Part shown: positions 3,699-25,799 of the stretch, in pieces
Layout of the letters: each line of letters starts with the position of its first letter
How positions within the stretch are numbered: the stretch's first letter is position 1
Virus genome (UHGV): UHGV-0150478
DNA from: a virus
Reading direction: 5' to 3' (one strand)
Length of the DNA: 27,479 nt
Position numbers and translations under genes: made by a program
Notes under the pieces: model-generated
Seen by the model: only the letters and a program-made list of their open reading frames with translations
The model's database searches: none
What the model was told of the DNA's origin: nothing

Positions 3699-3708
3699 AA
3701 AGCACCTG

Positions 3709-4284: not shown

Positions 4285-4300
4285 CCCACTAGCCTCCTGA

Positions 4301-4582: not shown

Positions 4583-4987
4583 ATGAAAAATGATATTGGT
4601 CAGCGGTTGCGTGAGGAAAGGGAAAGATTGGGACTTAGTCAAGTTGCCATGAGCGACATTGGTGGAGTCAAAAAGCTAACTCAGCTTAGATATGAGAAAG
4701 GAGATAGCTTTCCTGATGCTGCGTATTTGGCAGCGCTGTCTCGTTTTGGCCTTGATGTTCAGTATGTTGTGTTGGGAATTCACTCACCTGAAACTTATAA
4801 CGATGATGAGCAGGAATTGATTACTCGCTTTCGAGCAGCTTCGTTAGATGTGAAAAACGCGGTGATTGGGGCTTTAAAAGGTGCGATCAGTGAAAAGGAA
4901 ACTCAGCCATCAGGACGTGAGTTAAATATTTCTGGTGGTAATAACCGTATCGCTGGTCGTGACTATAACGAAACTAAGGGTAGGTGA
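4583..4987 (+). CDS. XRE-family HTH transcriptional repressor (immunity repressor candidate, C/cI position)
   Basis: N-terminus QRLREERERLGLSQVAMSDIGGVKKLTQLRYEKG is a classic Cro/C1-type HTH; first gene of the rightward operon that ends with int, as C in P2. Confidence 0.65.
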   Translation: MKNDIGQRLREERERLGLSQVAMSDIGGVKKLTQLRYEKGDSFPDAAYLAALSRFGLDVQYVVLGIHSPETYNDDEQELITRFRAASLDVKNAVIGALKGAISEKETQPSGRELNISGGNNRIAGRDYNETKGR

Positions 4988-5002
4988 TAGTAGGGAGGTG
5001 AC

Positions 5003-5653
5003 ATGGCCGTCAACTCAAACGGTTCAAACAATCGCGTTGCTGGGCGTGATTTTCACGAAAAGAATATTCAGATAGAGCGATATGATGGTTCTCATACCGT
5101 CAATATCGCAATCCCTTCGAATAATGATGATGACGATCGCCCTTTGCTTAAGGCTCAGCGTAAGGAGCTAAATAGCTTGGTTGCTGCTATTGCAGAAGCT
5201 AGCAATACTGAAGCGTTTATTATTTGGCAAAAAGTACATGCGGAGATTGGTGTAGCTGGTATTGATGATATGACAGTAAATCAATATAAAACAGCGGAGA
5301 GTTTTCTGCATGCAATGCTTGAGCGATGTAAAGATCATGATGCCTGTAAGGCTCTTGTAAGTTTATTACTACGTAACAGTGAAGACTGTGGACTTCGACA
5401 AAAACTTCTGCGGTATTGCCATATCAATTTCGGTACAGGACGTTTAAACGATCTTACTCGTTCTCAGTTACAGTCTGCATTGTCGTGGTTAGAGCAACAA
5501 TCGGCATCAAGCCACACAGAGAGTTCGACCTTACCAGAAGTCCGACTTCGTGCTTCAGAATTAATCCGACTTTATCCAAAAGAAATAATATTCTTTATCT
5601 GCGTAGGGGTTTTGGTAGGCGGTGTCATTTCTAGGGCGTTTTTTAATTTGTAA
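5003..5653 (+). CDS. Tail-anchored membrane protein, unknown function (cargo gene)
   Basis: 216 aa; single C-terminal hydrophobic helix (EIIFFICVGVLVGGVISRAFF); N-terminus repeats a motif from the C-terminus of the upstream repressor-like protein; AT-richer than flanking genes. Confidence 0.55.
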   Translation: MAVNSNGSNNRVAGRDFHEKNIQIERYDGSHTVNIAIPSNNDDDDRPLLKAQRKELNSLVAAIAEASNTEAFIIWQKVHAEIGVAGIDDMTVNQYKTAESFLHAMLERCKDHDACKALVSLLLRNSEDCGLRQKLLRYCHINFGTGRLNDLTRSQLQSALSWLEQQSASSHTESSTLPEVRLRASELIRLYPKEIIFFICVGVLVGGVISRAFFNL

Positions 5654-5682
5654 TCTTACTTGAGCTAAATTGAGGTAATGAT

Positions 5683-6030
5683 ATGAAAGTAAAAAAGGTT
5701 CAACTATTAGTTACTTTTTTATCTATGTTTTCTTTTTCCGCCGTCGCAATGCCTTTTAAAACTATTGAACGTGAGAGTTTCAATGGGGTATGGCCATTTA
5801 ATACTGATGAGGTTCAATTACAGTGTCTTGATGGTAATCCTTATGTGATGAATTTTGACGATAATAAGTTATATGCACTTACAGGTTTGGCTCGAATAAA
5901 AGGTAAAACATTTGGTGCGTTACCGTTAGATAACAATAATCCATTTTGGCTAGATAATGATGCCGCCCCAGGGTTAAAAAAGAGTCTGGGGGATGTCACT
6001 AAGGCTGCATTTGATTTATGTGATAAGTAA
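5683..6030 (+). CDS. Secreted/periplasmic small protein, unknown function (cargo gene)
   Basis: 115 aa; N-terminal signal peptide (MKVKKVQLLVTFLSMFSFSAVA, AxA-type cleavage site); two Cys in the mature part; AT-rich. Confidence 0.55.
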   Translation: MKVKKVQLLVTFLSMFSFSAVAMPFKTIERESFNGVWPFNTDEVQLQCLDGNPYVMNFDDNKLYALTGLARIKGKTFGALPLDNNNPFWLDNDAAPGLKKSLGDVTKAAFDLCDK

Positions 6031-6035
6031 CTAAA

Positions 6036-7037
6036 ATGTCGGTTCGTAAGATTCCATCAGGTAAATGGCTTTGCGAATGTTATCCCTACGGGGCATCGGG
6101 AAAACGCATTCGTAAACAGTTTGCGACAAAAAGTGAGGCGCTCTCTTATGAGCGCCGTTTAATGAATAGTAGAGTTGGAGACGAGTTTCAAGATGGTTCT
6201 GGTCCTCGTCTTTCTGAGTTGATTGCTCGCTGGTTTGAGATGTACGGTAAAACCTTGTCCTCTGGTGCAGAGCGCAAAGTCAAACTTGAGGCGATTTGTT
6301 CCAGGCTGGGAGATCCATTTGCTTCTCAGTTTGACAAAAATATGTTTGCTACTTATCGGGAAAGAAGGCTATCAGGAGAATGGAATCCCAAGGGGAAGAA
6401 AAAACTTAGTGAAGCAACCGTTAATCGCGAGCAGTCATATCTACATGCTGTTTTTGCCGAACTGAAGCGCCTTGGAGAGTGGTCTGGTGAAAACCCCCTG
6501 ACCGGTATTCGCAAGTTTCGTGAGGAAGAAAAGGAACTGGCGTTTCTGTATGTAGATGAGATTGAACGCCTTCTGATTGCGTGTGATGAGTCACGGAATA
6601 AAGATTTGGGGGTTGTTGTCCGTATTGGGCTTGCGACTGGTGCTCGGTGGAGTGAAGCAGAAGGATTAAAGCAATCTCAAGTACTGCCCGGTCGAATCAC
6701 ATTTGTTAAAACTAAAGGAAAGAAGAACCGCACTGTACCGATTTCACCTCAATTGCAAGCTATGCTTCCTAAAAAACGAGGAGCGCTATTTTCACCATGT
6801 TATGAGGCTTTTGACGCTGCAATTAAGAGAGCGAAGATCGAGCTTCCTGATGGGCAATTAACTCATGTGCTACGTCACACGTTTGCCAGTCATTTTATGA
6901 TGCGGGGCGGAAATATTCTTGTGTTGCAAAAAATACTGGGGCATAGCGATATAAAAATGACTATGCGTTATGCGCATTTTGCTCCAGGTCATTTAGAGGC
7001 TGCTGTTGAATTGAACCCTTTTGACAATAGAGGGTAA
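6036..7037 (+). CDS. int: Tyrosine recombinase, P2-family phage integrase
   Basis: 333 aa; conserved blocks GARWSEAEGLK, ITFVKTKGKKNRTVPIS, HVLRHTFASHFMMRGGNILVLQKILGHSDIKMTMRYAHFAP (R...HxxR...Y catalytic signature) align with recalled P2 Int; adjacent to att core. Confidence 0.9.
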   Translation: MSVRKIPSGKWLCECYPYGASGKRIRKQFATKSEALSYERRLMNSRVGDEFQDGSGPRLSELIARWFEMYGKTLSSGAERKVKLEAICSRLGDPFASQFDKNMFATYRERRLSGEWNPKGKKKLSEATVNREQSYLHAVFAELKRLGEWSGENPLTGIRKFREEEKELAFLYVDEIERLLIACDESRNKDLGVVVRIGLATGARWSEAEGLKQSQVLPGRITFVKTKGKKNRTVPISPQLQAMLPKKRGALFSPCYEAFDAAIKRAKIELPDGQLTHVLRHTFASHFMMRGGNILVLQKILGHSDIKMTMRYAHFAPGHLEAAVELNPFDNRG

Positions 7038-7143
7038 AAAGTGGCGATAAAAAGTGACAATAGATTCAAATGGCGTTGTATAGAGCCATTTTCAAAGTTA
7101 ATAAAATCATAAGGTTATGATTTATAAATGGTGGTTGATAGTT

Positions 7144-7198
7144 TTTAAAATCCCTCGGCGTTCGCGCTGTGCGGGTTCAAGTCCCGCTCCGGGTACCA
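7144..7198 (+). other. att core: 3' fragment of tRNA-Leu(UAA) (anticodon loop to CCA); no 5' half present
   Basis: Sequence TTTAAAATCCCTCGGCGTTCGCGCTGTGCGGGTTCAAGTCCCGCTCCGGGTACCA: anticodon TAA, long variable arm, T-arm GGGTTCAAGTCCCGC, acceptor 3' strand plus CCA. Upstream bases cannot form the 5' acceptor strand. Matches my recollection of enterobacterial leuZ 3' end. Confidence 0.8.
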
Positions 7199-7241
7199 TG
7201 GGAAAGATAAGAATAAAATCAAAGCAATAAGCAGTGTCGTG

Positions 7242-7266
7242 AAACCACCTTCGGGTGGTTTTTTTG
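7242..7266 (+). terminator. Intrinsic terminator downstream of the tRNA fragment
   Basis: 8-bp stem AAACCACC/GGTGGTTT with TTCG tetraloop (7242-7261) followed by T-run to 7265. Confidence 0.6.
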
Positions 7267-7357
7267 TATCTTCTTTTTCATTTCCGAAGATGCGTCCGAA
7301 GATGATTTTTCTCTGGACGCATCATCATTCATTTTCTCTGGCCACCAACTACGGGCA

Positions 7358-7612
7358 CTACTTTAACTTTTCGGTCATATGCTGCTGTCTGTCGTGGGTT
7401 CTTATGCCCGGAAATTGCTTGCTTCTCTTCCAGGCTGCCTTAGGCGTAATCAGTTCTGGTGGGGGGAATGCCGATTTCTCCCGCGTGACCTTAATGTTTT
7501 CTGGCAGGTGTAGCCCAAGTTCGCAGCGGCTCCGTGCTTCAATAATGCCATTGGTACCATCGGCAAGTACCAGGTGAACCGCGTCACCACGCTTTAATGT
7601 GAGTTTAAGCAT
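7358..7612 (-). CDS. Hypothetical small protein (84 aa); weak CsrA-like N-terminus
   Basis: N-terminus MLKLTLKRGDAVHLVL...KVTREK loosely resembles the CsrA pattern; start codon overlaps stop of upstream ORF by 1 nt (TAATG). Confidence 0.35.
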   Translation of the reverse strand: MLKLTLKRGDAVHLVLADGTNGIIEARSRCELGLHLPENIKVTREKSAFPPPELITPKAAWKRSKQFPGIRTHDRQQHMTEKLK

Positions 7613-7968
7613 TAGCGTACCCTCAGCGAACGTTCGCCGCGTTCCAGATGTGCGCCTGGTACCGGGTTAAGTAATTCGGCAGGTGGTGTTTCTCCACGCG
7701 CCATTATTTCTGCGGCAACCGCCTCCGCAGATTCAATCACTTCTTTAATGGCTCGCTTGTTTGGTGTAATAACCGTTTCTACTTCAACAAGTGACACGCC
7801 TTCATACTCGTCCGGGATCTTATCTTTGCTATCGATAATTACCCGGATAGCCCCCTGTGCATCAGTAAATGTGTTTTTAGCAGTTTTCAATTTACGATGA
7901 ATATTCTTTATCGCCTTTGGCTTCTGCTGCTTTTCGGTGTACATCCACTTCGCGGGCGATGAGGCCAA
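7612..7968 (-). CDS. Hypothetical protein (start uncertain)
   Basis: ORF overlaps the upstream ORF 7892..8341 by 77 nt in another frame; true start may be downstream, or the two ORFs may be one frameshifted gene. Confidence 0.3.
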   Translation of the reverse strand: MASSPAKWMYTEKQQKPKAIKNIHRKLKTAKNTFTDAQGAIRVIIDSKDKIPDEYEGVSLVEVETVITPNKRAIKEVIESAEAVAAEIMARGETPPAELLNPVPGAHLERGERSLRVR

Positions 7969-8341
7969 ATACCTTGTTTACTTCGTTGGTGGTTACCGCG
8001 GCGGCCAGCGTATTGGCAACGTTGATCAGCTTCTCATCCAGTTCCTTACGAAGACGGGTAGCATCTTCCGCATTCTCGCTGGCATTCTTGATATCAAACT
8101 CAGCTTTATTCCTCTGGCGGTATTCCGGATTGTCGTACAGGCCCATGAAAATATCGGCGCTGAATCCGAGAGGGGATAGCGCTTTCTTAACAGCATCCGT
8201 CCAGGATTTCTTCGGCGCTTCGCCGTCGCTTGTTGGTCCATGTCTAGTATCGTAGATGTACGGAGTGCAACCGTAAGCCGCAGACTCGCCGCGCACCCCA
8301 TTCAATATGTACCAGACTCTCACTTTCATGGTGTGGTGCAT
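7892..8341 (-). CDS. Putative single-strand annealing recombinase remnant (Erf/Bet-like motif), possibly 5'-truncated
   Basis: Segment KKALSPLGFSADIFMGLYDNPEY resembles the conserved motif I recall in phage SSAPs (Bet ARLAFGFAGIYDKDE; Erf ARKYCLNGLFGIDD). N-terminal 20 aa look non-protein-like and abut a likely deletion junction. Confidence 0.3.
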   Translation of the reverse strand: MHHTMKVRVWYILNGVRGESAAYGCTPYIYDTRHGPTSDGEAPKKSWTDAVKKALSPLGFSADIFMGLYDNPEYRQRNKAEFDIKNASENAEDATRLRKELDEKLINVANTLAAAVTTNEVNKVFGLIAREVDVHRKAAEAKGDKEYSS

Positions 8342-8783
8342 TTCACATAGGTACAGCGTGGCTGAGATTCAGTTAGTAATTCGTTGGGTTATTGCGACAT
8401 GGCGCCGTCGTAGCGGAAGCGTTCCGAAACCTGCGAACATTTGCCGCGTAAACCGGTTTGACGGATACCTGGCTGACGCTGAGACGTGGGCCACTGCTGA
8501 GGCTGCCGTTGACCCTGCTGAAGTTGTGAAGGGCTACAACGAGATTCTGGGCGACCTGCTACCTATAGCTGAAATTGATACTGACCGCCGTCGGGCAATC
8601 CTGCGCCTGCTGGCACATATGCGCACGCAAACTCTTGGCGCATTTATCGGCTACTTCGAAAAATTCCGCGATAACGCCCCAGACTTCTATTTCGGCGGCG
8701 AATATCGCACCGGCTGGCGGGCAGGGTTTGATTACCTGATGAAGCCAGAAACACTGCGTAAAACCAGGGAAGGGGCATTATGA
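8307..8783 (+). CDS. Replication initiator (lambda O-like) C-terminal region; probably 5'-truncated
   Basis: Stop overlaps the start of the DnaB-like helicase gene (ATGA), the position of O-type initiators; first ~50 codons (W/C/R-rich) look like non-coding sequence read in frame. Confidence 0.4.
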   Translation: MYQTLTFMVWCISHRYSVAEIQLVIRWVIATWRRRSGSVPKPANICRVNRFDGYLADAETWATAEAAVDPAEVVKGYNEILGDLLPIAEIDTDRRRAILRLLAHMRTQTLGAFIGYFEKFRDNAPDFYFGGEYRTGWRAGFDYLMKPETLRKTREGAL

Positions 8784-10171
8784 ATCCAGAAGAACTGGAA
8801 GCGATCGTTCTCGCTGGTCTGATTAACGGTGGCGCGACGCCTGACGCGTTTGATGTGATTGCCACTACTCCGGAGGAAGCCTTCAGCATCGTGTTTCACC
8901 GTCGCGCTTTCAGCGAAATCAAAAAGCAGGCACTGGCGAACGGCATGATCGACATGTTGTTTATCAGCGAAGCGCTGGGCGGTTCCAGCCTTGCGGATCT
9001 GTCTCAAATATCCCGGATCCCGGCAACGGTACCGAATCTGAAAGGCTATGCCGGGAAAATGGTGCGGGCATGGCGGAGCCGCAAAATGGCGGCATTGTTG
9101 CAATCTGGCGCGGATGGTATCCGTAACGCTGTAAACCAGAGTCAGCGTGATGAGGTTATTGAATCTCATGTTGCTCAGGTGCTGGATATGAGCGCCGCTA
9201 CCGGCACAGTCCAGCCGGTACACATCAAAGAGCTGTTACCGCTCTACATTGACACCGTTGATAAACGGATGTCTGGCGACGCGCAGGAAATGATGCTGAA
9301 AACCGGAGTCGAGGATCTGGATGTCGCCCTGGGCGGTATCAACATGACCGACCTTGTTGTGGTTGCCGGTCGTCCAGGCATGGGGAAAACGGAATTTACC
9401 CTGAAGATTATCGATGGCGTTACCGCAGATGGCGGCGGCGCACTGTTTTTCAGCATGGAAATGGGCGCTCAGCAGATTGTTGAACGTACCGTTGCCGGGG
9501 CTGGGAATATGTCCACGTCGCGTCTGCGTAATCCAAAAGAAATGGACGATGAGGATTTGACCAGATTAACCGCCGCGCTTGCAATCATGCAGGATCGCGA
9601 TATCTGGATTGTTGATGCCACTGATTTGACGATTGAGCAGATCCGCGCCATTGCAGAGACTCATAAACGCCGTTATCCGCACCTGAAGTTGATTGGTGTT
9701 GATTACATGGGCCTGATCAAAAAACCGAAGGCCGAGCGCCACGATCTCGCTGTCGGGCATATCTCCCGCAACATGAAGACTATGGCCATGCGTCTGCATA
9801 CCCCTGTTTTTGCTCTTAGCCAGCTTTCCCGCCAGGTGGATTCTCGACCTGCTGGCCAGCGTCGCCCGGTGATGTCGGACCTGCGCGATTCCGGCAGTGT
9901 TGAGCAGGACGCTGACAGCATTTTGTTTTTGTACCGCGATGAAGTTTACACACCTGATTCACCTGCAAAGGGTATCGCCGAGGTGATTATCGGTAAAAAC
10001 CGTTCTGGCGGGGCAGGTGAAATTATTTATCAGGAATTCCGGAATGGGCATTTCCTGCCAGTTGATCAACACGTAGCACGCGAAAAATTACGCATCCAGA
10101 AGGAGGCAGAGCAACCGAGAAAACGTGAAAAACGGTATTCAAACAAAAACTTTAATACGGACCCATTTTAA
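8780..10171 (+). CDS. Replicative DNA helicase, DnaB family (phage P/gene-12-like)
   Basis: 463 aa; Walker A GRPGMGKTEF, DnaB-type motifs DADSILFLYRDEVY and IIGKNRSGGAGEI; N-terminal DnaB-like domain. Confidence 0.9.
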   Translation: MNPEELEAIVLAGLINGGATPDAFDVIATTPEEAFSIVFHRRAFSEIKKQALANGMIDMLFISEALGGSSLADLSQISRIPATVPNLKGYAGKMVRAWRSRKMAALLQSGADGIRNAVNQSQRDEVIESHVAQVLDMSAATGTVQPVHIKELLPLYIDTVDKRMSGDAQEMMLKTGVEDLDVALGGINMTDLVVVAGRPGMGKTEFTLKIIDGVTADGGGALFFSMEMGAQQIVERTVAGAGNMSTSRLRNPKEMDDEDLTRLTAALAIMQDRDIWIVDATDLTIEQIRAIAETHKRRYPHLKLIGVDYMGLIKKPKAERHDLAVGHISRNMKTMAMRLHTPVFALSQLSRQVDSRPAGQRRPVMSDLRDSGSVEQDADSILFLYRDEVYTPDSPAKGIAEVIIGKNRSGGAGEIIYQEFRNGHFLPVDQHVAREKLRIQKEAEQPRKREKRYSNKNFNTDPF

Positions 10172-11742: not shown

Positions 11743-13050
11743 ATGCCGTGGAACAATTTTCCGCACCTCGCCGCCAGGGCGTTCAATCAACCGCTTTTGC
11801 TGGAGCCCACCTACGCGCGGGTATTTTTTTCGGCGCTGAGCGACCGGTTCGGTACCGGGCGACTGATTGATACAGCGTCTGGAGAGGTAATGAACAGCGA
11901 CGAAATGAACGCGCTCGCGATGGGGTGGGACAGCAGCGAGCGAACACGCCAGAAATCGTATCGCGTGGAGCGTGGTATAGCCGTTCTGCCGGTTACCGGG
12001 ACGCTGGTTCATAAATTGGGTTATATCAACCCAGTTAGCGGGATGAGCGGTTACGACGGAATCGCAAAACGCCTGCAGCAGGCGATTTCTGATCCCGATG
12101 TAAGAGGGGTCCTGCTTGATATTGACTCCCCTGGCGGTGAAGTCGCCGGCGCGTTTGATACTGCTGATTTAATCGCCCGGGCGCGAGAGCAAAAACCTGT
12201 GTGGGCGCTGGCCAGCGATACGGCCTGCAGCGCTGCCTATTTGCTGGCGTCAGCGTGTTCGCGCCGGCTGATAACGCAGACAGGCACAGTTGGTTCAATC
12301 GGTGTCCTGATGGCTCACCGCTGCGTCGAAAAAGCGCTGGAGATTGCTGGCGTCGACGTGACGCTGATTTACGCCGGCGCGCACAAAGTTGACGGGAACC
12401 CGTATTCCCAGCTGCCAGGCGACGTTCGCGACGAATTCCAGCTGAGTATTAACAGCACGCGCGAGCAGTTCGCGCAAAAAGTCTCGGATTATACCGGGCT
12501 GAAAAAATCCAGGGTGCTGGCCACGGAAGCTGCAGTATTTATCGGCGCGGACGCGATTAAATCTGGTCTCGCTGATCAACTCGTTAATTACGCGGACGCT
12601 ATCGCAGTGATGGCCGACGCACTGAAACCAAAAATGGAGCGCTTTATGTCTGGTACAGAAACCACGGCGGAGACCACGACCACAGAACAAACCGCGACCA
12701 CGACTACTGTCGCGCAGGTTGAGTTTAACACGGAGCAGATTCGCGCGGACGCCGCATCAAGCGAACTGGCGCGTGTGATGGCCATCATCAATTGTCCCGA
12801 AGCTGTTGGGCGCGAGGCGCAGGCAAAAGCGCTCGCTGGCGTCCCCGGGATGACGGTCGGGCAGGCGCAGGTAGTCCTCGCTGCAGCACCTAAAACGGCG
12901 CAGGCGCGGACAGAAACGGCGCTCGATACACTAATGAGCACTGAATCACCAGCGACTATTCAGGATGCTGGCAGTACTACGGCAACAGGAACAACCGCAA
13001 ACGTCTCGATGCTGGTTGCTGCAGGGCGTTCAATTTTAGGGGATGAATAA
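11743..13050 (+). CDS. Prohead protease / scaffold, S49 (SppA/ClpP-like) family, lambda gpC-like
   Basis: 435 aa; peptidase core with serine motif TACSAAYLLASA and GSIGVLMAH; Thr/Ala-rich C-terminal region consistent with a fused scaffold (Nu3-like) domain. Confidence 0.8.
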   Translation: MPWNNFPHLAARAFNQPLLLEPTYARVFFSALSDRFGTGRLIDTASGEVMNSDEMNALAMGWDSSERTRQKSYRVERGIAVLPVTGTLVHKLGYINPVSGMSGYDGIAKRLQQAISDPDVRGVLLDIDSPGGEVAGAFDTADLIARAREQKPVWALASDTACSAAYLLASACSRRLITQTGTVGSIGVLMAHRCVEKALEIAGVDVTLIYAGAHKVDGNPYSQLPGDVRDEFQLSINSTREQFAQKVSDYTGLKKSRVLATEAAVFIGADAIKSGLADQLVNYADAIAVMADALKPKMERFMSGTETTAETTTTEQTATTTTVAQVEFNTEQIRADAASSELARVMAIINCPEAVGREAQAKALAGVPGMTVGQAQVVLAAAPKTAQARTETALDTLMSTESPATIQDAGSTTATGTTANVSMLVAAGRSILGDE

Positions 13051-13379
13051 TGACTACAGAAACGTATAGCCCGGACGATTTTATTCTTGGGCCTGACCTT
13101 GTTGTCACGACCGTCGGTCATTTTCAGGGCGGGATCAACGTACCCCGGCTGACACCGATTATGCTCAACGCTACTGTCGGGACGTTTAAGGTTTGGGACG
13201 GCTCAGTCGGTAAAGCTATTGGCCTCACTGCCACCGCAGTTAATACTGGCTCCAGTTCTGCAGACTGCTCGTACTATAAATCAGGCTCGTTCCGTTACAC
13301 GGCGATTAACTGGGGTACGGTTACCGACGTAGCTAAACGCAAATCAGCATTTGTGGGTACGCCGATCAGCGTCGGCTGA
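13050..13379 (+). CDS. Head decoration protein (lambda gpD-like)
   Basis: 109 aa, Gly/Thr-rich, between protease and major capsid gene as in lambda; ATGA overlap with the protease gene. Confidence 0.65.
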   Translation: MTTETYSPDDFILGPDLVVTTVGHFQGGINVPRLTPIMLNATVGTFKVWDGSVGKAIGLTATAVNTGSSSADCSYYKSGSFRYTAINWGTVTDVAKRKSAFVGTPISVG

Positions 13380-13397
13380 TAGCAAAAAACTCAAAAC

Positions 13398-13421
13398 AAG
13401 CCGCCTCCGGGCGGTTTTTTT
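13398..13421 (+). terminator. Intrinsic terminator/attenuator between decoration and major capsid genes
   Basis: Stem CCGCC/GGCGG (13401-13414) with TCCG loop, flanked by A-run and followed by T7. Confidence 0.45.
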
Positions 13422-13437
13422 ATAACAGGATATATAA

Positions 13438-14472
13438 ATGAGCGATTCGTTTACTACGTCAGAACTGATTACCGCGACACAGCAGGTATTTAAGTTCAAT
13501 CCGTTGTTTTTAAAGCTGTTTTTCCGTGAGACCTACACGTTTACGAGCGAAGAGGTTTTTCTGGATAAAATCCCGGGAAAAGTGAACATGGCCGTGTACT
13601 GCGCGCCGATGATCACCGGCAAAGTTGACCGCACTCGCGGCTATTCAACGAACCATTTCAAACCGGGTTACACGAAACCCAAGCACACGATCAATCCGAA
13701 TATGAGCATCAAGCGCGCAGCCGGTGAGCAGATTGGCCAGCCGGAAACGCCGGTCGAACGTCGTGCAAAAATCATCATGCAGAACCTGCTTGATGAGGAA
13801 CTGAGCATCAGCCAGCTCGAAGAGTTCCAGGCGGTACAGGCTGTTCTGTACGGTAAATACACTGTTTCCGGCAGCAATATCGAGACATATGAGATCGACA
13901 TGAGCCGCAGCGCGACGAATAACGTCACTCAGTCCGGTTCGACAGCCTGGTCGACTCAGGACGCGGAAACGTATGACCCGAGCGACGATATTGAATCCTA
14001 CGCGGACCTCGCCTCCGGTGCGGTTAACGTGATCATCATGGATGGTAAAGCCTGGAAGCAGTTGAAGCGTTTTAAAAAATTCTGGACGGCACTGGATACG
14101 CGCCGTGGCTCAAACAGCCAGCTCGAGGTCGCGCTGAAAAACCTGGGCGACGTTGTCAGCTTTAAAGGCTACTACGGCGACACTGCGCTGTTTGTCTACA
14201 AAGGGCAATACCTCGACCCGGTAACAGATACTGAAACGCGTTATATGCCGGATAACACGATGATCCTTGGCAACACAAAAAACCGCGGGCTCCGCACTTA
14301 TGGCGCAATTCAGGACGAAGACGCGCTGAAAGAGGGTATTTCCGAAGCGACGCGCTATCCAAAAGTCTGGACCACTACCGGTGATCCGGCAGTGACGCAA
14401 ACAATGACGCAATCCGCGCCAGCAATGGTCCTCACGGACGCCGACGCGTTCGTTGTCGTAAAAATCGCGTAA
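13438..14472 (+). CDS. Major capsid protein (lambda gpE-like)
   Basis: 344 aa; size, position after the gpD-like gene and overall sequence character match the lambda E family. Confidence 0.8.
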   Translation: MSDSFTTSELITATQQVFKFNPLFLKLFFRETYTFTSEEVFLDKIPGKVNMAVYCAPMITGKVDRTRGYSTNHFKPGYTKPKHTINPNMSIKRAAGEQIGQPETPVERRAKIIMQNLLDEELSISQLEEFQAVQAVLYGKYTVSGSNIETYEIDMSRSATNNVTQSGSTAWSTQDAETYDPSDDIESYADLASGAVNVIIMDGKAWKQLKRFKKFWTALDTRRGSNSQLEVALKNLGDVVSFKGYYGDTALFVYKGQYLDPVTDTETRYMPDNTMILGNTKNRGLRTYGAIQDEDALKEGISEATRYPKVWTTTGDPAVTQTMTQSAPAMVLTDADAFVVVKIA

Positions 14473-14474
14473 GA

Positions 14475-14496
14475 GTCGAAAGGCTCTTTTTTGTTA
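14475..14496 (+). terminator. Intrinsic terminator after major capsid gene
   Basis: Stem AGAGTC/GGCTCT (one G-U pair) with GAAA tetraloop, followed by T6. Confidence 0.45.
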
Positions 14497-14506
14497 AGGA
14501 ATCAAC

Positions 14507-14926
14507 ATGAGCACAAAAACAGAATTGCTGGCGCGTATTGACGATATGAGCGCTCAGCTCGGTCGCGAATTACCGCGCAGCGGGACTATTGCGGAACTGG
14601 AATCAATCGTTGCCGGCGCTGAGTCAGAGCTCGATATTCTGAACGAGCAATCCGGTGACGCGGGAGGCATCGAGATTACAGTGAATACTGCGTCCGGGAC
14701 CGATAATGAACTCGCTCAATCAATCGCGAGCGCTATCGTTTCACAGTCACAAGAGCAGGAGCTCGCACCGGCTACGCGCCGCGTCAAGTTGCGTAACACG
14801 CTGGACGTTTATCACTACGTGAACGGGCGTCGCGTTCGCGAGATTGTTGCCGCAGGCCGTGAAATTGTTGTTGATTCACCGGAGGTCGCAGACCTTATCG
14901 CAGCTGATCACGTTTACGCTCTATGA
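14507..14926 (+). CDS. DNA-packaging protein FI-like
   Basis: N-terminus MSTKTELLARIDDMSAQLGRELPRSGTIAELESIVAGAESEL parallels recalled lambda gpFI N-terminus (MTKDELIARLRSLGEQLNRDVSLTGTKEELALRVAELKEEL). Confidence 0.55.
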   Translation: MSTKTELLARIDDMSAQLGRELPRSGTIAELESIVAGAESELDILNEQSGDAGGIEITVNTASGTDNELAQSIASAIVSQSQEQELAPATRRVKLRNTLDVYHYVNGRRVREIVAAGREIVVDSPEVADLIAADHVYAL

Positions 14927-15303
14927 GCTACTACGATGACCTCCGGGCCGGCGACGAGGAGATGATCCGTGAGTGGGGACGGCCCGTTAAATTACGCGGT
15001 AAAACCGACCCCATTATCGCTATTTTCAACGAGCCTTACGCGCGCGTTGACGTTCCTCACGCTGGTTTTATTACCGGTACAGTAACGAGCCTGACGGCGT
15101 TCTCGGACGACGTCGCTGGCGTTGTTGCGCGTGACGTCGTCCAGGTTCCAAAGCAGCGCAGCATCGAACCTGACGGCTCTGTTACCTGGTCTGGCTGGAC
15201 CGATTACGTGGTTAAAGAGCCTCAACCTGATGGCACAGGGCTCACGAATATTTTTTTAGAGCCTCACACGTCCAGCGAAAACAGCGAGTATTCAAAATAC
15301 TAA
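14923..15303 (+). CDS. Head-tail joining protein (FII-like)
   Basis: 126 aa; positional equivalent of lambda FII directly after the FI-like gene (ATGA overlap). Confidence 0.45.
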   Translation: MSYYDDLRAGDEEMIREWGRPVKLRGKTDPIIAIFNEPYARVDVPHAGFITGTVTSLTAFSDDVAGVVARDVVQVPKQRSIEPDGSVTWSGWTDYVVKEPQPDGTGLTNIFLEPHTSSENSEYSKY

Positions 15304-15334
15304 GTGGGACCTCGGTCCCACTTAAGGGGGAACC

Positions 15335-16015
15335 GTGGCCGATTTACGTAGTAACGCGCAGATGTTCGATATCGATGTTTCGGCGCTGGAGCAGCTCAGA
15401 GTCGAAATCAGCGCGACGCAACATCAAATGTTAATGGTATACAACAGGGCGCTGAACCGAACTGCAAAACATATGCACCGAATTTCAGCAGGAATGATTT
15501 TGACTGCACTGGCAGCTAAAAATCATAAGGCCGTAGATAAACGAATCAAGCCGTTCATTAAGCGCCGTAATTTTACAAAAGAAGGGGCAGGAGACCTGAG
15601 CAGCGCCAAGCTCTGGTACGGTCTGAATGATTTCCGGGTATCTGAGCTAAAGGGGCGATTACAAAATCCACGGAGGCAAAAACAGCCTCGCGATCTTGAG
15701 ACCGGCCTGTTTTTGAAAACCAAAAAAGGCGCTAGAGGGGCAACTTTTACACCCAAAAGTGCAGGGCTGGCGATGATGAGTTGGCCCGATTCATTCGTAG
15801 CGAAACGCTACGGTGCGAAAAGTGTCTGGATTCGACTGGATCGCGGAGGAATCGAAGAGGCTCGCGTACCTGTGCACGACGCGCTGGAGGATGCTATCGA
15901 TGATTATATTTTTGAAAACATTGGCCCTGTTTTTATGGGCTTTTTTGAGAAAGATTTGCGCGGTCGCGTGAAAGGTAATGTCCACGTAGACCCAAAAACA
16001 GGTAAACGATTATGA
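15335..16015 (+). CDS. Virion morphogenesis / neck protein, unknown family (GTG start)
   Basis: 226 aa, basic; lies between head-completion and baseplate genes; GTG start preceded by AAGGGGGAA. Confidence 0.4.
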   Translation: MADLRSNAQMFDIDVSALEQLRVEISATQHQMLMVYNRALNRTAKHMHRISAGMILTALAAKNHKAVDKRIKPFIKRRNFTKEGAGDLSSAKLWYGLNDFRVSELKGRLQNPRRQKQPRDLETGLFLKTKKGARGATFTPKSAGLAMMSWPDSFVAKRYGAKSVWIRLDRGGIEEARVPVHDALEDAIDDYIFENIGPVFMGFFEKDLRGRVKGNVHVDPKTGKRL

Positions 16016-16548
16016 GCGGACTGGATGCATTTGACGAATATCTTGATCGCGTTAAAGGCGCGGTTTTACAAATACCGTTCATCAAAACATTCGGAATTTA
16101 TCCGGAAATTCCGGCTGGATTTGAAACGCCAGCTCTGTTCCTGGAAATCAGCAACTGGTCACAGAGTGACGAATCGGTTCCAGGCTCAATTCAGTCAGTC
16201 GAGCTGTCGTGTAATTTGTATTTGCTGCGTGAATTTGCAGCTGATCAGTACGGACTGAAATCGCAGAATGCAGCGCTCTATATGACGAGCTGGATCAATG
16301 GGCGAATGTTCGGTCCCGGAACTAAACCGGCAAAATTCAGCGACGCGGAACCGTGCGACTGGATTAAAAACGGGCAGTCAGTCGGTTCGCATTCAGTTCA
16401 GTGCGTGTCGTTCACGCAGGTTGTAGGCGTTGGTCCAGATATTTTCGATTATCCCTCACAGGGGACCCTGAAAAATATATACGTCGGAATAGCACCAGAT
16501 ATCGGCGCAGAACATGAGGGCGACTATTATGGCCCAATCGGACGATGA
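16012..16548 (+). CDS. Virion structural protein (possible tail completion protein)
   Basis: 178 aa; ATGA overlap with the upstream gene; immediately precedes the baseplate spike gene. Confidence 0.4.
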   Translation: MSGLDAFDEYLDRVKGAVLQIPFIKTFGIYPEIPAGFETPALFLEISNWSQSDESVPGSIQSVELSCNLYLLREFAADQYGLKSQNAALYMTSWINGRMFGPGTKPAKFSDAEPCDWIKNGQSVGSHSVQCVSFTQVVGVGPDIFDYPSQGTLKNIYVGIAPDIGAEHEGDYYGPIGR

Positions 16549-17431
16549 ATATGCTGCAGCGGAGAACGCGCGCAGGCTGCGTGACGCAGTTAAACGCGGC
16601 ACGATAGCTGCAGTTAAAATGAATCCTCCACGCTGCCGAGTCTCATTTGGTGGCGAACACCAGTCAGGCTGGCTGCAGTGGTTTACTCACGCCACCTCAG
16701 AACGCGTCGACTGGAGCGCACCATCAGTGGGCGATCCCGTTACTGTTGTTTCTGAGGGTGGGGATACGCGGAACGGTGTAGTTATGCTCGGGCTGCACAT
16801 TGACGACAAAGCTCCGTCAAGCAATGACCCCCATGATCATGTCACTGCATACTGTGACGGGGCTACGATGACGTATAACACAAAAAATCACACTCTGACA
16901 TGGCAGGGCGTACCGGACGGCGTGGTAAAAATACTCGGTGAGTCTGAAATAGAAATATTTGGACGCGCAGATGTTACTATTAATAGCGAAAATGTAGTTA
17001 ATATCCATGGTGGGAAATTAATTAACGCAGACGCTGATATTATTAATGTCACAGCGACAGATACAATTAACGCACATGCTGATTTAGTGAACGTTATAGC
17101 AACGAGTTCTGTTAGTGTTACTGCTGCGAACAGAATATCGCTGACAGCTCAAACAATCAGCGCGTGGGCTCCGGGTGGTATAACACTAGCTGGTCCAACG
17201 CATATTACCGAGACATTAGTAGTAGATAAATTAGCGACATTCCGTAACGATATTTCTGTCACTGGAGATAACGGTGGAACAGGTAATATCACAACTCGCG
17301 GTAGTGTGTTAGCAGGGCAAGAGGTGCAGGACCGACAAGGCACAATGACTGAGGTCCGCACAACGTACAACGGACACACTCATATATGTCCGGACGGGGA
17401 AACACAACAACCGAACCAACCAATGGCGTAA
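16514..17431 (+). CDS. Baseplate central spike protein (P2 gpV-like); start may be ATG at 16529
   Basis: N-terminal gpV-like domain, then repetitive beta-helix region (NVVNIHGGKLINADADIINVTATDTINAHADLVNVIATSSVSV) and His/Cys-containing tip (GHTHICPDG). Confidence 0.7.
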   Translation: MRATIMAQSDDEYAAAENARRLRDAVKRGTIAAVKMNPPRCRVSFGGEHQSGWLQWFTHATSERVDWSAPSVGDPVTVVSEGGDTRNGVVMLGLHIDDKAPSSNDPHDHVTAYCDGATMTYNTKNHTLTWQGVPDGVVKILGESEIEIFGRADVTINSENVVNIHGGKLINADADIINVTATDTINAHADLVNVIATSSVSVTAANRISLTAQTISAWAPGGITLAGPTHITETLVVDKLATFRNDISVTGDNGGTGNITTRGSVLAGQEVQDRQGTMTEVRTTYNGHTHICPDGETQQPNQPMA

Positions 17432-17433
17432 AT

Positions 17434-17775
17434 ATGCTTGGAATGGACCGTAACACCGGTAAGCCTTTATCGGGGACTGATCACATTTGTCAGTCTATCG
17501 TTGATATTTTAACGACCCCGCTGGGAACCCGTGTAATGTTGCCGGAATACGGCAGCAAATTATTTGACCTCGTTGATAATCCCACTGATCCGTCGCTTGC
17601 TATGAGAATAATAATGGAAAGTGCAGGAGCAATAGCACGCTGGGAACCACGCGTCAGAATTGACAGAATAAATGTGTTAGCAGTGGACATCGGGAAAATA
17701 ACAATATTAATTATCGCAACAGATATCGAAACACAACAGCGATTAGAGTTTAATAATATGGAACTGATATTTTGA
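17434..17775 (+). CDS. Baseplate protein (P2 gpW / gp25-like)
   Basis: From ATG at 17434 (MLGMDRNTGKPLSGTDHICQSIVDILTTPLGTRVMLPEYGS) the protein aligns with recalled P2 gpW; the ORF-track start at 17386 overlaps the spike gene and is less likely. Confidence 0.75.
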   Translation: MLGMDRNTGKPLSGTDHICQSIVDILTTPLGTRVMLPEYGSKLFDLVDNPTDPSLAMRIIMESAGAIARWEPRVRIDRINVLAVDIGKITILIIATDIETQQRLEFNNMELIF

Positions 17776-18692
17776 TAACATCAACAGTTCAGAATTCGAT
17801 AGTGAAAACTATTGATATGAGTCTGCTGCCGCCGCCAGCATTCGTTAAAACCCCATTATTTTCAGATGTTAAATCCAGTCTACTGTCAGAATTGCAGATA
17901 TTATATCCACAATTTAACGCACTCCTGGAGTCAGACCCGGCCGTTAAACTGCTGGAAATAGTTGCATACAGAGAAATCATTATTACAGCTCGGGTAAATC
18001 AGGGGATGCTCGCTGTATTGCTCGCGTTTGCAAAAGGGAGTGACCTCGACCAGATCGGCGCTAATTTTGACTGCCTGCGGCTGTTGATAACGCCAGCTAA
18101 TCCTGACGCAATTCCTCCGACTGAGGGGGTTTACGAGAGTGACGACGAGTATCGTCATCGCATACAGCTATCATGGTACGCGCGGAATACTGCCGGCAGT
18201 ACGAACGCCTATAACTATTTCGCGCTGTCGAGTGATCCCGACGTTCTGTCAGCTCAGGCGTACGGCCCGCCGGTGACCCAGCCTGGATACGTCGATATGT
18301 ATGTTTTGTCGCGAACCGGCGACGGCACTCCGCCTCAATCACTACTGAATACAGTGAATGCGGCCCTGTCTCCTGACGATACTCGACCGCTGACTGATTT
18401 CGTGACTGTAAAACCTGCGTCGAACCTGAATTACCGGGTTGAAGCCGTTATCGTAGCGGGGCTCGGTCCCGATCAGAACGTGTTGCTCAACGGTGCTCAA
18501 AGCGATTTAGCTATATACGTGGCTACACAACATAAAATCGGGGCGACAGCAGCCCTGTCAGGAATTTACGACGCGATACATCGTGACGGAACGGAGCGTG
18601 TGATTCTGATATCGCCAACAGAGGATGTGATTGCTGGCGTCGGACAGGCTCCGTACTGCACAGAAATCAAACTCAGCGTGCAAATGGGGTAG
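17772..18692 (+). CDS. Baseplate assembly protein (P2 gpJ-like); alternative ATG start at 17816
   Basis: Conserved blocks DQIGANFDCLRLLITPANPDAIPPT, YRHRIQ, ALSGIYDAIHRDGTERVIL, YCTEIKL parallel recalled P2 gpJ. Confidence 0.8.
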   Translation: MITSTVQNSIVKTIDMSLLPPPAFVKTPLFSDVKSSLLSELQILYPQFNALLESDPAVKLLEIVAYREIIITARVNQGMLAVLLAFAKGSDLDQIGANFDCLRLLITPANPDAIPPTEGVYESDDEYRHRIQLSWYARNTAGSTNAYNYFALSSDPDVLSAQAYGPPVTQPGYVDMYVLSRTGDGTPPQSLLNTVNAALSPDDTRPLTDFVTVKPASNLNYRVEAVIVAGLGPDQNVLLNGAQSDLAIYVATQHKIGATAALSGIYDAIHRDGTERVILISPTEDVIAGVGQAPYCTEIKLSVQMG

Positions 18693-18694
18693 CC

Positions 18695-19321
18695 ATGACA
18701 AGTCAAAGCGTACTGCCTCCGAACGCAATAACCCCTGAGAGGGCGCTTGAGGTTGTTTTATCTCACGTCGGCGATCTGCCTGGCGATATTCGAATTATTA
18801 AAAATCCCGATTTGTGCCCTGCAAATCTGTTGCCGTGGCTGGCGTGGGAGTACGCGGTCACCTACTGGAACCCCGACTGGAGCGAGCAGCAAAAACGCGA
18901 AATTATTAAGGCCGCAGCCTGGCAAAATAAACATCGCGGCACGCGTGGTGCCGTCGAACGAGCATTATTAACGGTGGGATTTGAGAGCAAAATGAGAGAG
19001 TGGTTTGAAGCCACGCCCAGGGACGACCCGTATACATTCGCAATTAAAATATATCTGCTAAAAAGTATAGGGTTAGATTTAGAACTATTGAATACCTTTA
19101 TTGCACAAATATTTGATGCAAAAAATTGCCGTTCCTTATTAAAAGAAATAAATTTTGAAACGGGTGTCGATGGTGAATTTTTTATAGCTGGTGCGCCTTA
19201 CGCGAAAATAGGCGTAAATATCCCAGCAGACGGCGACGGCGGTGTAAAAATTAACGGCGGGCTATATATATCAGGCTCGCCAATTGTGAGTTTGTTAGTG
19301 GAGATAGGACCTAATGGCTAA
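18695..19321 (+). CDS. Baseplate/tail protein (P2 gpI-like)
   Basis: Block NPDLCPANLLPWLAWEYAV matches recalled P2 gpI (NPDTCPANLLPWLAW). Confidence 0.75.
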   Translation: MTSQSVLPPNAITPERALEVVLSHVGDLPGDIRIIKNPDLCPANLLPWLAWEYAVTYWNPDWSEQQKREIIKAAAWQNKHRGTRGAVERALLTVGFESKMREWFEATPRDDPYTFAIKIYLLKSIGLDLELLNTFIAQIFDAKNCRSLLKEINFETGVDGEFFIAGAPYAKIGVNIPADGDGGVKINGGLYISGSPIVSLLVEIGPNG

Positions 19322-20525: not shown

Positions 20526-20815
20526 TGATAAGTGTTGATTCATTTAGAAAAATAACAAACCCTGTTTTTAATGACGAGCATGGGTTATCTATAAATATTA
20601 TTTGCGATATTGACGGGATTGGAAACGACATTCCATTCACCGCAATGAAAAATGATTGCGAGGAACACGGTAGGGTTTTATATGAAAGAGCGCTGAGCGG
20701 GGATTATGGGAGCATTTCTAAATTTGTAAAAAAGAGCAGACGCAAAAACTCCAGACTACATTACGGACTGTTGGCGATCTGTCAATTGAGGCATTCTCAA
20801 TTCAGTGTGCAGTAG
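20525..20815 (+). CDS. Putative tail fibre assembly/chaperone protein, zero-frame product (96 aa); possible -1 frameshift product ends at 20910
   Basis: Positional analogue of P2 G; contains in-register heptamer A_AAA_AAG at 20728-20734; the -1 frame is open from there to a TGA overlapping the sheath start codon. Confidence 0.4.
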   Translation: MISVDSFRKITNPVFNDEHGLSINIICDIDGIGNDIPFTAMKNDCEEHGRVLYERALSGDYGSISKFVKKSRRKNSRLHYGLLAICQLRHSQFSVQ

Positions 20816-20909
20816 ATGCCGGAACCGCATCTGACGCGCAAATCGAAAACTTGGCCGAGCTTAAAGAAGCAATAGCGACGCGAATTGGTGAAAATAGAGA
20901 AGGAATAAA

Positions 20910-22412: not shown

Positions 22413-22429
22413 TAATTCGGAGATTAAAT

Positions 22430-22942: not shown

Positions 22943-22954
22943 AAGGCAAATAAA

Positions 22955-23236: not shown

Positions 23237-23344
23237 TTATTCTGATTCCGTTTATTGCGAAAAAACTTGCCATCCCGCCCGATACGCAAATGGACCTGCC
23301 GTACCGGGTTTTTAATTTCTATGTAAACGAGGTCATGAAAATCG

Positions 23345-25410: not shown

Positions 25411-25571
25411 TAAAAAATCAAACGCTTGCAGAGCACTTAACAAGTATAAAAATAATAAAAAAAACTACGAACATAAATGTAAAACAACCTGATGGTATTT
25501 TTTTTGACGCCGAAATACTAATACCTCTCCGACTACTAAAATTAATTCTCATTATGAAATCCTTTTAATTA

Positions 25572-25796: not shown

Positions 25797-25799
25797 TGA

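What the first reader, a model, noticed from the sequence alone, without database searches (positions are those of the whole stretch)
6036..7360. Integrase, att core and terminator mark a junction between two phage-derived elements
A P2-family integrase is followed after 106 bp by a 55-nt 3' fragment of tRNA-Leu(UAA) with no 5' half, i.e. an att core. A strong terminator 45 bp downstream looks like the native tRNA trailer. Phage-like genes resume on the other side from about 7358. The simplest reading is a P2-like prophage whose int end abuts a second, degraded prophage (tandem or adjacent insertions). A less likely alternative is a single circular phage genome seen in attP form. An 8-bp palindrome AATCATAA-GG-TTATGATT near 7100-7117 lies in the int-proximal arm.
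Basis: partly seen in the sequence, partly recalled or inferred. Interest (0 to 1): 0.5.

Follow-up and report, generated by a model that had tools for sequence, protein, structure and literature searches.

The report
Tandem prophage junction at tRNA-Leu leuZ
This is the seam between two prophages inserted one after the other into the E. coli leuZ tRNA gene, an ordinary and well-known kind of arrangement, with the twist that the repeated attachment sequence also contains a whole known regulatory RNA (3'ETS-leuZ) and its terminator.

Summary
The window is E. coli chromosome, 99.5% identical to strain CEA601S. There the order is pgsA-glyW-cysT-leuZ(intact), a ~36-kb P2-like prophage A, the junction, a ~20.5-kb degraded prophage B, then yecA. 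Window 6036-7037 is an intact P2-family integrase (38% identical to P2 Int over its full length). Window 7144-7198 is exactly the last 55 nt of leuZ, starting at the first base of the anticodon loop.

Four corrections:
- The direct repeat is 124 bp (7144-7267), not 55, and is present in three exact copies. Copy 3 lies only 172 bp beyond the window end.
- The 69 nt after the tRNA fragment are not just a terminator. Positions 7199-7265 are the annotated sRNA sponge 3'ETS-leuZ.
- Prophage B starts at 7268, with the last 36 codons of its own, unrelated integrase at 7329-7439 (minus strand).
- The palindrome has 9-bp arms at 7104-7123.

The circular-attP alternative is refuted. leuZ is a heavily used, published integration site, so this is ordinary. 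The only mildly new point is that phages targeting leuZ carry, and on integration replace or duplicate, the whole 3'ETS-leuZ.

The parts
4583..4987 (+). C-like HTH repressor of P2-like prophage A; first gene of the operon that ends with int
   Evidence: Pfam HTH_31/HTH_3 and PHROG repressor families. Annotated as an HTH protein in CEA601S. Same position as gpC in P2.
5003..6030 (+). Two cargo ORFs (216 aa; 115 aa, DUF2511) inserted between the repressor and int
   Evidence: phrog_5825 and phrog_2950/DUF2511. No PADLOC match. P2 has nothing at this position.
6036..7037 (+). Intact P2-family tyrosine integrase of prophage A
   Evidence: Int plus its arm is present in 525 of 5426 complete E. coli genomes.
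7035..7060 (+). Candidate arm-type Int-binding direct repeats (TAAAAAGTGGCGA / TAAAAAGTGACAA) overlapping the int stop codon
   Evidence: Conserved in the diverged relative SW071619. GTGGCGAT repeats recur in the distal arm beside leuZ. P2's annotated Int arm site sits at the same place. Binding is inferred.
7038..7143 (.). int-proximal arm of prophage A's attachment site (the left arm of this junction)
   Evidence: Contiguous with int in all A-type lysogens. It ends where identity to leuZ begins.
7104..7123 (.). Perfect palindrome AAATCATAA-GG-TTATGATTT; probable accessory-protein (Cox/IHF-type) site
   Evidence: The arms are invariant and the spacer changes GG to CG in SW071619, while the flanking arm DNA diverges. 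Matches the relaxed IHF pattern WATCANNNNNTTR on both strands. It lies where P2 has its Cox boxes. Function is inferred.
7144..7267 (+). 124-bp identity block, copy 2 of 3 exact direct repeats. It serves as attR of prophage A and as the former attL of prophage B.
   Evidence: 7105 places in 5425 complete E. coli genomes, up to 4 per genome.
7144..7198 (+). Displaced 3' 55 nt of tRNA-Leu(UAA) leuZ, from the first base of the anticodon loop to CCA
7199..7265 (+). Orphan copy of the 3'ETS-leuZ sRNA sponge (pairs with RyhB and RybB), 100% identical to K-12 b4759
   Evidence: K-12 annotation and alignment. The pairing core AAGCAGTGTCGTG gives duplex energies beyond those of shuffles. Function per PMC6191717. 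Expression of this copy was not tested.
7241..7262 (+). Intrinsic terminator of the glyW-cysT-leuZ operon; here the only terminator-like site downstream of the C-int operon
7268..7328 (.). int-proximal arm of prophage B's attachment site, with direct repeats TCCGAAGATG x2 (7283-7304)
   Evidence: 99% identical to attL of the intact JJ1887 prophage. The repeats are conserved in the 79%-identical relative 23GD11002.
7329..7439 (-). Relic of prophage B's integrase: the last 36 codons plus the stop
   Evidence: PGAP pseudogene in CEA601S and 19AR1724. Translation. Maps to the 3' end of the 338-aa int of JJ1887. The B-type Int is only 27% identical over 123 aa to the A-type Int.
7440..7441 (.). Deletion scar: 1,355 bp (most of int, the DUF4224 xis-like gene) missing relative to JJ1887
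7442..8353 (-). Early-gene debris of prophage B: phrog_2482 ORF, Gp157/Gam-like fragment, exonuclease C-terminal fragment. A second deletion scar (368 bp) lies at 7893/7894.
8352..10171 (+). RepO C-terminal fragment (8352-8783) and intact DnaB-type helicase (8780-10171) of prophage B
11743..27429 (+). Remaining late region of prophage B: S49 protease, capsid, FI, baseplate, sheath, tube, tape measure, gpD-like. No terminase or portal.
   Evidence: CEA601S annotation. ORF list.

Best explanation
Window 6036-7440 is the internal junction of a two-element prophage array at the E. coli tRNA-Leu(UAA) gene leuZ. It is attR of an intact-looking P2-like (Xuanwuvirus-type) prophage A fused to what used to be attL of an older, degraded myovirus-type prophage B.

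Shared target. Each phage carries in its attP a 124-bp copy of host sequence: the last 55 nt of leuZ, the 67-nt 3'ETS-leuZ spacer RNA, and its terminator. A tyrosine integrase exchanges strands at the anticodon-loop end of this block. As a result the working leuZ gene keeps its own 5' half and receives a phage-supplied 3' half, spacer RNA and terminator. The host's original 3' part is pushed to the far end of the prophage.

Most likely order of events. B integrated first and then lost its integrase and excisionase by a 1.36-kb deletion. A later integrated into the still-intact leuZ, between leuZ and B. The block at 7144-7267 is therefore a promoter-less orphan copy.

Consequences.
- The orphan block's terminator is the first one downstream of A's repressor-to-int operon and probably ends that transcript.
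- A can still be excised by Int plus Cox acting between the leuZ copy and this copy.
- B cannot excise on its own.
- RecA-mediated recombination between any two of the three 124-bp repeats could delete A, B or both.

Shown: the three repeats and their flanks, the identity of the two integrases, B's deletions, and the crossover position for the B-type integrase family. Inferred: the crossover position for A, the protein-binding roles of the arm repeats and the palindrome, the order of insertion, and termination of the int transcript.
For: - Genome context in CEA601S: leuZ | hok, ogr, D, tail, head, A, cox side, C, int | block | B remnant | block | yecA. The window is 99.53% identical over all 27,479 bp.
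- Three exact 124-bp copies with four different flanks. The empty K-12 site shows the native right flank GCCTGCAACTTG, which is seen only after copy 3.
- A-only and B-only genomes exist.
- Element A: P2 Int homology and P2-like gene order. The nearest deposited phage is the Peduoviridae prophage record 520873, also next to yecA.
- Element B: an intact relative in JJ1887 has a convergent 338-aa int next to leuZ. The window maps onto it with defined deletions.
- Crossover: in 23GD11002 a B-family prophage with a variant block leaves all variant bases, from the T-stem onwards, in attL and none in attR. Exchange therefore occurred within the first 28 nt of the block.
- The free phage mEp390 carries the same kind of block in its annotated attP next to int.
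- Order of insertion: the int_B deletion endpoints are identical in B-only strains (100% over 7144-9071). The B part differs from CEA601S at 8 positions in 20 kb, against 121 in the 7 kb of A.
- The only + strand terminator-like site between 4250 and 7300 is at 7241-7262.
- leuZ is listed as a prophage or integrative-element site in STEC genome papers (PMC8767318, PMC7067040).
Against: - The window itself contains only one of the three repeat copies. The array is therefore inferred from a 99.5%-identical complete genome, not from the source contig.
- All three copies are identical, so the crossover point of Int A cannot be read from the sequence. SW071619 was uninformative.
- If A's core is at the anticodon loop, its distal arm repeats lie about 150 bp from it. 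That is farther than in P2, where the distance is about 36 bp.
- B-only genomes could in principle derive from A+B ancestors by precise excision of A, so the order of insertion is not proven.
- No expression or excision data exist.
Confidence: 0.93

Rival explanations
1. One circularly permuted phage genome seen in attP form: int, attP core, then the rest of the same phage.
For: An integrase followed by a tRNA 3' fragment and then phage genes is what a free temperate phage looks like, for example mEp390.
Against: - The DNA to the right of the block (7268-7441) is 99-100% identical to the attL arm that directly follows intact leuZ in JJ1887 and 19AR1724. It also contains the 3' end of a different integrase.
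- Element A's true distal arm, with matching GTGGCGAT repeats, lies beside leuZ 36 kb away.
- The window would contain two tail modules' worth of unrelated phages, and element B has no terminase or portal.
- The chromosomal context is known.
Confidence: 0.01
2. Same array but the opposite history. A integrated first at leuZ, B then integrated into A's attR copy of the block, and B's integrase was deleted afterwards. B-only strains would arise by later excision of A.
For: The block at attR of A contains the whole identity segment, including the anticodon-loop overlap. Precise excision of A would leave exactly the B-only structure seen in 19AR1724.
Against: - It needs more events, because the identical int_B deletion is shared by B-only strains.
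- Only 1 of 5426 complete genomes has A next to this B, against 14 genomes with the B left end at 99% identity or more.
- The A part is 40-fold more diverged between the window and CEA601S than the B part, as expected if B is the old resident.
- attR of A lacks the tRNA 5' half-site to the left of the overlap.
Confidence: 0.1
3. Assembly artefact: two separate leuZ-type junctions collapsed or joined across the 124-bp repeat.
For: Repeats at prophage ends are classic sites of misassembly in short-read data.
Against: An independent complete assembly (CEA601S) has the identical join, 100% over 6900-7700. It has a consistent three-repeat array and single-copy flanks. A 124-bp repeat is shorter than ordinary reads.
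Confidence: 0.02

Closest known systems
Bacteriophage P2 int-attP module (Peduoviridae)
   Same: Full-length homologous integrase (38% identity). Same order: C repressor, int, att, with cox divergent. Tandem direct arm repeats overlap the int stop codon, followed by an accessory-site region of about 85 bp before the core, and a second pair of arm repeats sits on the far side.
   Different: P2 uses a 27-bp core at a non-tRNA site, whereas this element uses a 124-bp block in leuZ. The arm repeat sequence differs (GTGGCGAT here, GTCCACA in P2). Two cargo ORFs lie between C and int. The distal arm repeats are about 150 bp from the presumed crossover. The genus is Xuanwuvirus-like rather than Peduovirus.
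tRNA-gene attachment sites of tyrosine integrases with crossover in the anticodon loop (the classification of Williams 2002, Nucleic Acids Res; cited from memory)
   Same: The identity block starts at the first base of the anticodon loop and runs through the 3' end of the gene. An intact tRNA is regenerated at one end and a 3' fragment is left at the other. Crossover at the anticodon-side end is shown for the B family.
   Different: The identity block continues 69 bp beyond the tRNA, through a complete spacer sRNA and terminator. Two distantly related integrases (27% over 123 aa) use a block with the same start and end.
Tandem prophage or integrative-element arrays at one attB (polylysogeny at tRNA hot spots), e.g. 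leuZ in STEC genomes (PMC8767318, PMC7067040)
   Same: Several elements in series, separated by direct repeats of the att block. An older, decayed element is retained next to a newer one.
   Different: This particular pairing is rare (1 of 5426 complete E. coli genomes) but not different in kind.
3'ETS-leuZ sRNA sponge of E. coli K-12 (b4759; Lalaouna et al. 2015 as cited in PMC6191717)
   Same: Window 7199-7265 is 100% identical, including the RyhB/RybB pairing core and the terminator.
   Different: This copy is not attached to a complete leuZ or to the glyW promoter. It lies downstream of a prophage integrase gene, and its expression and processing are unknown.

Membership tests
P2-family (Peduoviridae) integrase / P2-like prophage | Full-length sequence homology to P2 Int, with an N-terminal arm-binding domain and a tyrosine-recombinase catalytic domain | tested here: met
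   38% identity over 329 aa to P2 Int, E 1e-74. Pfam Int_N plus Phage_integrase. 53-57% identity to integrases of Salmonella, Klebsiella and Yersinia P2-like phages.
P2-family (Peduoviridae) integrase / P2-like prophage | Catalytic residues R, K, H-x-x-R, H, Y present in an uninterrupted ORF | tested here: met
   ATGARW, KTKGKKNRTVPI, HVLRHTF, LGHSD and MRYAHF all align to the identical P2 motifs.
P2-family (Peduoviridae) integrase / P2-like prophage | P2-type gene order: cox/B/A leftward, C then int rightward towards att, ogr-D on the other side of att; P2-family capsid, scaffold, terminase and portal | tested here: met
   CEA601S annotation compared with P2. The closest phage record is classified as Peduoviridae, Xuanwuvirus.
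P2-family (Peduoviridae) integrase / P2-like prophage | Int binding to arm-type repeats, and Cox/IHF binding in the arms | not testable with these tools
   Only positional and conservation evidence for candidate sites.
tRNA-gene attachment site (attL/attR pair) | Sequence identical to the 3' part of a host tRNA gene, with no 5' half at this copy | tested here: met
   55/55 identity to leuZ. No tRNA found by ARAGORN in the window.
tRNA-gene attachment site (attL/attR pair) | A second copy forms an intact tRNA gene at the other end of the element | tested here: met
   Intact tRNA-Leu(UAA) lies 35,978 bp upstream in CEA601S. This is outside the window itself.
tRNA-gene attachment site (attL/attR pair) | An empty site exists in related genomes, with flanks that match the outer flanks of the array | tested here: met
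   K-12 has leuZ, 3'ETS and yecA with the same right flank as copy 3.
tRNA-gene attachment site (attL/attR pair) | Strand exchange within the anticodon-loop region | tested here: inconclusive
   Shown for the B-type integrase family from polymorphisms in 23GD11002. For Int A, all copies are identical.
Tandem prophage array | Three or more direct repeats of the att block delimit two or more distinct elements, and single-element genomes exist | tested here: met
3'ETS-leuZ sRNA sponge | Sequence identity to the characterised RNA, including the RyhB/RybB pairing site and terminator | tested here: met
   100% identity to K-12 b4759. Duplex energies beyond those of shuffles.
3'ETS-leuZ sRNA sponge | Transcription and RNase E release from a precursor, Hfq binding, and titration of RyhB/RybB | not testable with these tools
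   No promoter-like site in 6900-7700. The only possible source is read-through from the C-int operon.

The most novel reading that the evidence does not exclude
The attachment block of phages that target leuZ is more than a recombination site plus tRNA repair patch. It carries the complete 3'ETS-leuZ sponge RNA. Two consequences would follow. First, lysogeny replaces the host's sponge allele with a phage-borne one, as in strain 23GD11002, where a foreign-genus allele now follows leuZ. Second, lysogeny leaves orphan copies. The copy at 7199-7265 forms the 3' end of the prophage repressor-to-integrase transcript, so it could release extra sponge under prophage control and dampen RyhB/RybB signalling in lysogens.
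Probability: 0.12. Interest if true: 0.5.

Novelty: already known. Interest (0 to 1): 0.2.

Why it matters
As it stands this is routine genome annotation. It fixes the boundaries of two prophages, shows which one can still move, and explains an orphan tRNA fragment.

It matters slightly more for two reasons:
- Anyone studying 3'ETS-leuZ, RyhB or RybB in natural E. coli isolates should know how common extra copies are. The 124-bp block occurs at 7105 places in 5425 complete genomes, up to 4 per genome.
- In lysogens the copy attached to leuZ is phage-supplied.

No paper in the searched library links 3'ETS-leuZ to prophage att sites. Five papers contain both terms, but their texts were not read.

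Tried and rejected
- ARAGORN on the window found no tRNA, as expected for a half gene.
- Rfam has no model that reports the half tRNA or 3'ETS-leuZ. It gave only sub-threshold sroD and STnc130 terminator look-alikes, which I rejected as chance.
- I tried to map Int A's crossover from a diverged A-type lysogen (SW071619). Its attL and attR blocks are identical, so it was uninformative.
- An exact search for the 23GD11002 variant spacer in one-genome-per-species contigs found nothing. A degenerate pattern found native alleles in Pseudocitrobacter and Phytobacter. Conservation of the sRNA-pairing core in phage copies may therefore simply reflect captured host alleles rather than selection on the phage.
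- PADLOC gave no hit for the cargo ORFs.
- A literature search for leuZ + integrase + P2-like returned no papers.
- RNA duplexfold over-extends the duplexes, because it ignores intramolecular structure. I used only the pairing core and the shuffle comparison.
- ORF 7239-7577 (+) has no family match and overlaps the int_B relic, so I treated it as spurious.
- I first suspected an inversion that disrupts prophage A's tail genes. I dropped this because the Xuanwuvirus record 520873 has the same orientation.
Full report
**What is in the sequence**

The ORF at 6036-7037 (+) encodes a 333-aa tyrosine recombinase. It matches Pfam Int_N and Phage_integrase. It aligns end to end with P2 Int at 38% identity, with the catalytic R, K, HxxR, H and Y motifs in place.

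Exactly 106 bp after its stop codon, window 7144-7198 is 55/55 identical to the 3' part of tRNA-Leu(UAA) leuZ. The match begins at the first base of the anticodon loop and ends at CCA. ARAGORN finds no tRNA in the window, and the sequence to the left is phage DNA.

A nine-pair GC-rich hairpin with a T-run lies at 7241-7262 (-12.5 kcal/mol).

**Where it sits**

The window is 99.53% identical over all 27,479 bases to the chromosome of E. coli CEA601S. The stretch 6900-7700 is 100% identical there, and in no other of 5,426 complete E. coli genomes.

The gene order in that genome is as follows:
- pgsA, glyW, cysT and intact leuZ.
- A P2-like prophage: hok, ogr, D, tail, lysis and head genes, ParM, replication endonuclease, cox side, C-like repressor, two cargo ORFs, int.
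- The junction.
- A second phage-derived region.
- yecA.

A 124-bp block, window 7144-7267, occurs three times as an exact direct repeat:
- Copy 1 forms the 3' part of intact leuZ, 35,978 bp upstream.
- Copy 2 is at the junction.
- Copy 3 lies 20,507 bp downstream, 172 bp beyond the end of the window and next to yecA.

The empty site in K-12 has one copy, followed by GCCTGCAACTTG. That flank is seen only after copy 3 in the array.

Genomes with only the first element have int, the block and the native yecA flank in that order. Genomes with only the second element have intact leuZ running straight into window 7199-9071 at 100% identity. The single-circular-phage alternative is excluded.

**The two elements**

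Element A is a P2-like prophage of the Xuanwuvirus type. The closest deposited record, Escherichia phage 520873, is itself a prophage cut out next to yecA. Its int plus int-proximal arm is present in 525 of 5,426 complete E. coli genomes, including O157:H7 strains.

Element B is a decayed myovirus-type prophage. Its intact relative in JJ1887 has, directly after leuZ, the following genes:
- a convergent 338-aa integrase,
- a DUF4224 xis-like gene,
- a small ORF,
- Gp157,
- a 738-aa exonuclease,
- an immunity region,
- RepO and DnaB.

The window maps onto that relative with defined losses:
- A 1,355-bp deletion at 7440/7441. It leaves only the last 36 codons of int, at 7329-7439 on the minus strand.
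- A 368-bp deletion at 7893/7894.
- Loss of the immunity region and the N-terminus of RepO.
- No terminase or portal, going by the gene order in CEA601S.

The B-type integrase is only distantly related to that of A (27% over 123 aa). Even so, both elements use a block with the same first and last base.

**The trailer is more than a terminator**

In K-12 the 67 nt immediately after leuZ are annotated as the small regulatory RNA 3'ETS-leuZ (b4759). This RNA is released from the glyW-cysT-leuZ precursor. It pairs with RyhB and is polyadenylated downstream of its terminator (PMC6191717, citing Lalaouna et al. 2015).

Window 7199-7265 is 100% identical to it. Its AAGCAGTGTCGTG core pairs with RyhB and with the 5' end of RybB far better than shuffled sequence does.

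The att block is therefore the leuZ 3' half plus the entire 3'ETS-leuZ and its terminator. The free phage mEp390 carries an 88%-identical version of the whole block in its annotated attP, next to int. Such blocks are thus a feature of phage genomes, not a by-product of integration.

The mEp390 version is almost the native leuZ-3'ETS allele of Pseudocitrobacter. The phage copies therefore look like captured host alleles. Conservation of the pairing core in them need not reflect selection on the phage.

**How it works**

Strain 23GD11002 carries a B-family prophage with a variant block. In attL all variant bases, from the T-stem through the spacer, are phage-type, while attR is entirely native. 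Strand exchange therefore occurs within the first 28 nt of the block, at the anticodon-loop end. In a lysogen the working leuZ has a phage-supplied 3' half, spacer RNA and terminator.

For Int A the same position is inferred from two observations:
- The block starts at the same base.
- The distance from the arm repeats at the int stop codon to the block start (84 bp) matches P2's arm-to-core distance of 87 bp.

It could not be shown directly, because all copies are identical.

Candidate arm-type sites for Int A are:
- TAAAAAGTGGCGA / TAAAAAGTGACAA at 7035-7060.
- GTGGCGAT repeats in the distal arm beside leuZ. These stay conserved in a lysogen whose int is only 89.5% identical, whereas the DNA beyond them diverges.

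The palindrome's arms are likewise conserved in that lysogen while its spacer changes. It lies where P2 has its Cox boxes, and it fits a relaxed IHF pattern. An accessory-protein site is the likeliest role, but this is inferred.

The only + strand terminator-like site between the C-like repressor gene and 7300 is the leuZ terminator. It probably ends the C-orf-orf-int transcript.

**History**

The likeliest order is that B came first and A second:
- The int_B deletion endpoints are identical in B-only strains.
- The B left end is found at 99% identity or more in 14 genomes, whereas the A|B join is found in one.
- Between the window and CEA601S, 121 of 129 differences lie in the 7 kb of A and 8 lie in the 20 kb of B.
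- A's integrase would find a normal attB in leuZ, whereas B's would have had to use a copy that lacks the tRNA 5' half.

The reverse order, with later loss of A, is not excluded.

**Comparison and novelty**

This is a standard tRNA-gene att junction in a standard tandem array. leuZ is listed as a prophage or integrative-element site in STEC genome studies. The 124-bp block occurs at 7,105 places in 5,425 genomes, up to four per genome.

The one point I did not find made in the searched literature is that the att block contains the whole 3'ETS-leuZ sponge, so that lysogeny replaces and duplicates it. The search was by terms only, and five papers holding both terms were not read. Whether the orphan copy is expressed is untested, and I rate a regulatory consequence as unlikely.

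**Verdict**

The finding is ordinary and already explained, so interest is low.

Noticed in passing
window 1495-1582 (-) and 1618-1692 (-): Rfam gathering-level matches to C4 antisense RNA (78.5 bits) and isrK Hfq-binding RNA (63.1 bits). They lie side by side in a gap that PGAP leaves unannotated, within the early (cox-side) operon of the P2-like prophage.
   Followed up: no
window 5003-5653 and 5683-6030 (+): Two cargo ORFs (216 aa, phrog_5825; 115 aa, DUF2511) sit between the C-like repressor and int. P2 has no genes at this position. No PADLOC defence-system match.
   Followed up: partly
window 7199-7265 (+); K-12 b4759: The tRNA 'trailer' is a 100% identical copy of the sRNA sponge 3'ETS-leuZ. 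Every element integrated at leuZ adds another copy. The block occurs at 7105 places in 5425 complete E. coli genomes, up to 4 per genome.
   Followed up: yes
L012 (E. coli 23GD11002) 144-310 versus 35480-35760: A prophage has replaced the 3' half of leuZ (with a compensatory T-stem change) and the 3'ETS with an allele of the type native to other Enterobacteriaceae genera. The native E. coli copy is displaced to attR.
   Followed up: partly
window 8780-13050; L002 7637-7957: Prophage B has DnaB and small ORFs followed directly by the S49 head protease, with no terminase or portal. In 19AR1724 the same remnant is cut down further, from a truncated DnaB straight to baseplate gene V, leaving essentially a tail module.
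   Followed up: no
window 1-7000 versus L001 13102-20100: The prophage A part differs from CEA601S at 121 positions, 62 of them within 2001-3000. The 20-kb prophage B part differs at 8 positions. This suggests separate acquisition of, or recombination in, the P2-like element in otherwise near-identical hosts.
   Followed up: no
phage records ON470596, ON470604, ON470624, ON470627 (L009): Several GenBank 'complete phage genomes' named vB_EcoM-... (20-27 kb) are this same kind of degraded leuZ prophage remnant, with the yecA flank included. They are not viable phage genomes.
   Followed up: partly
window 7283-7326: Direct repeats TCCGAAGATG x2 and a 9-bp inverted repeat GATGCGTCC/GGACGCATC lie next to the relic of int_B. 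They are conserved in a 79%-identical relative. In mEp390 they are replaced by TTCGCCAT x3. They are probably orphaned arm-type sites of the lost integrase.
   Followed up: partly
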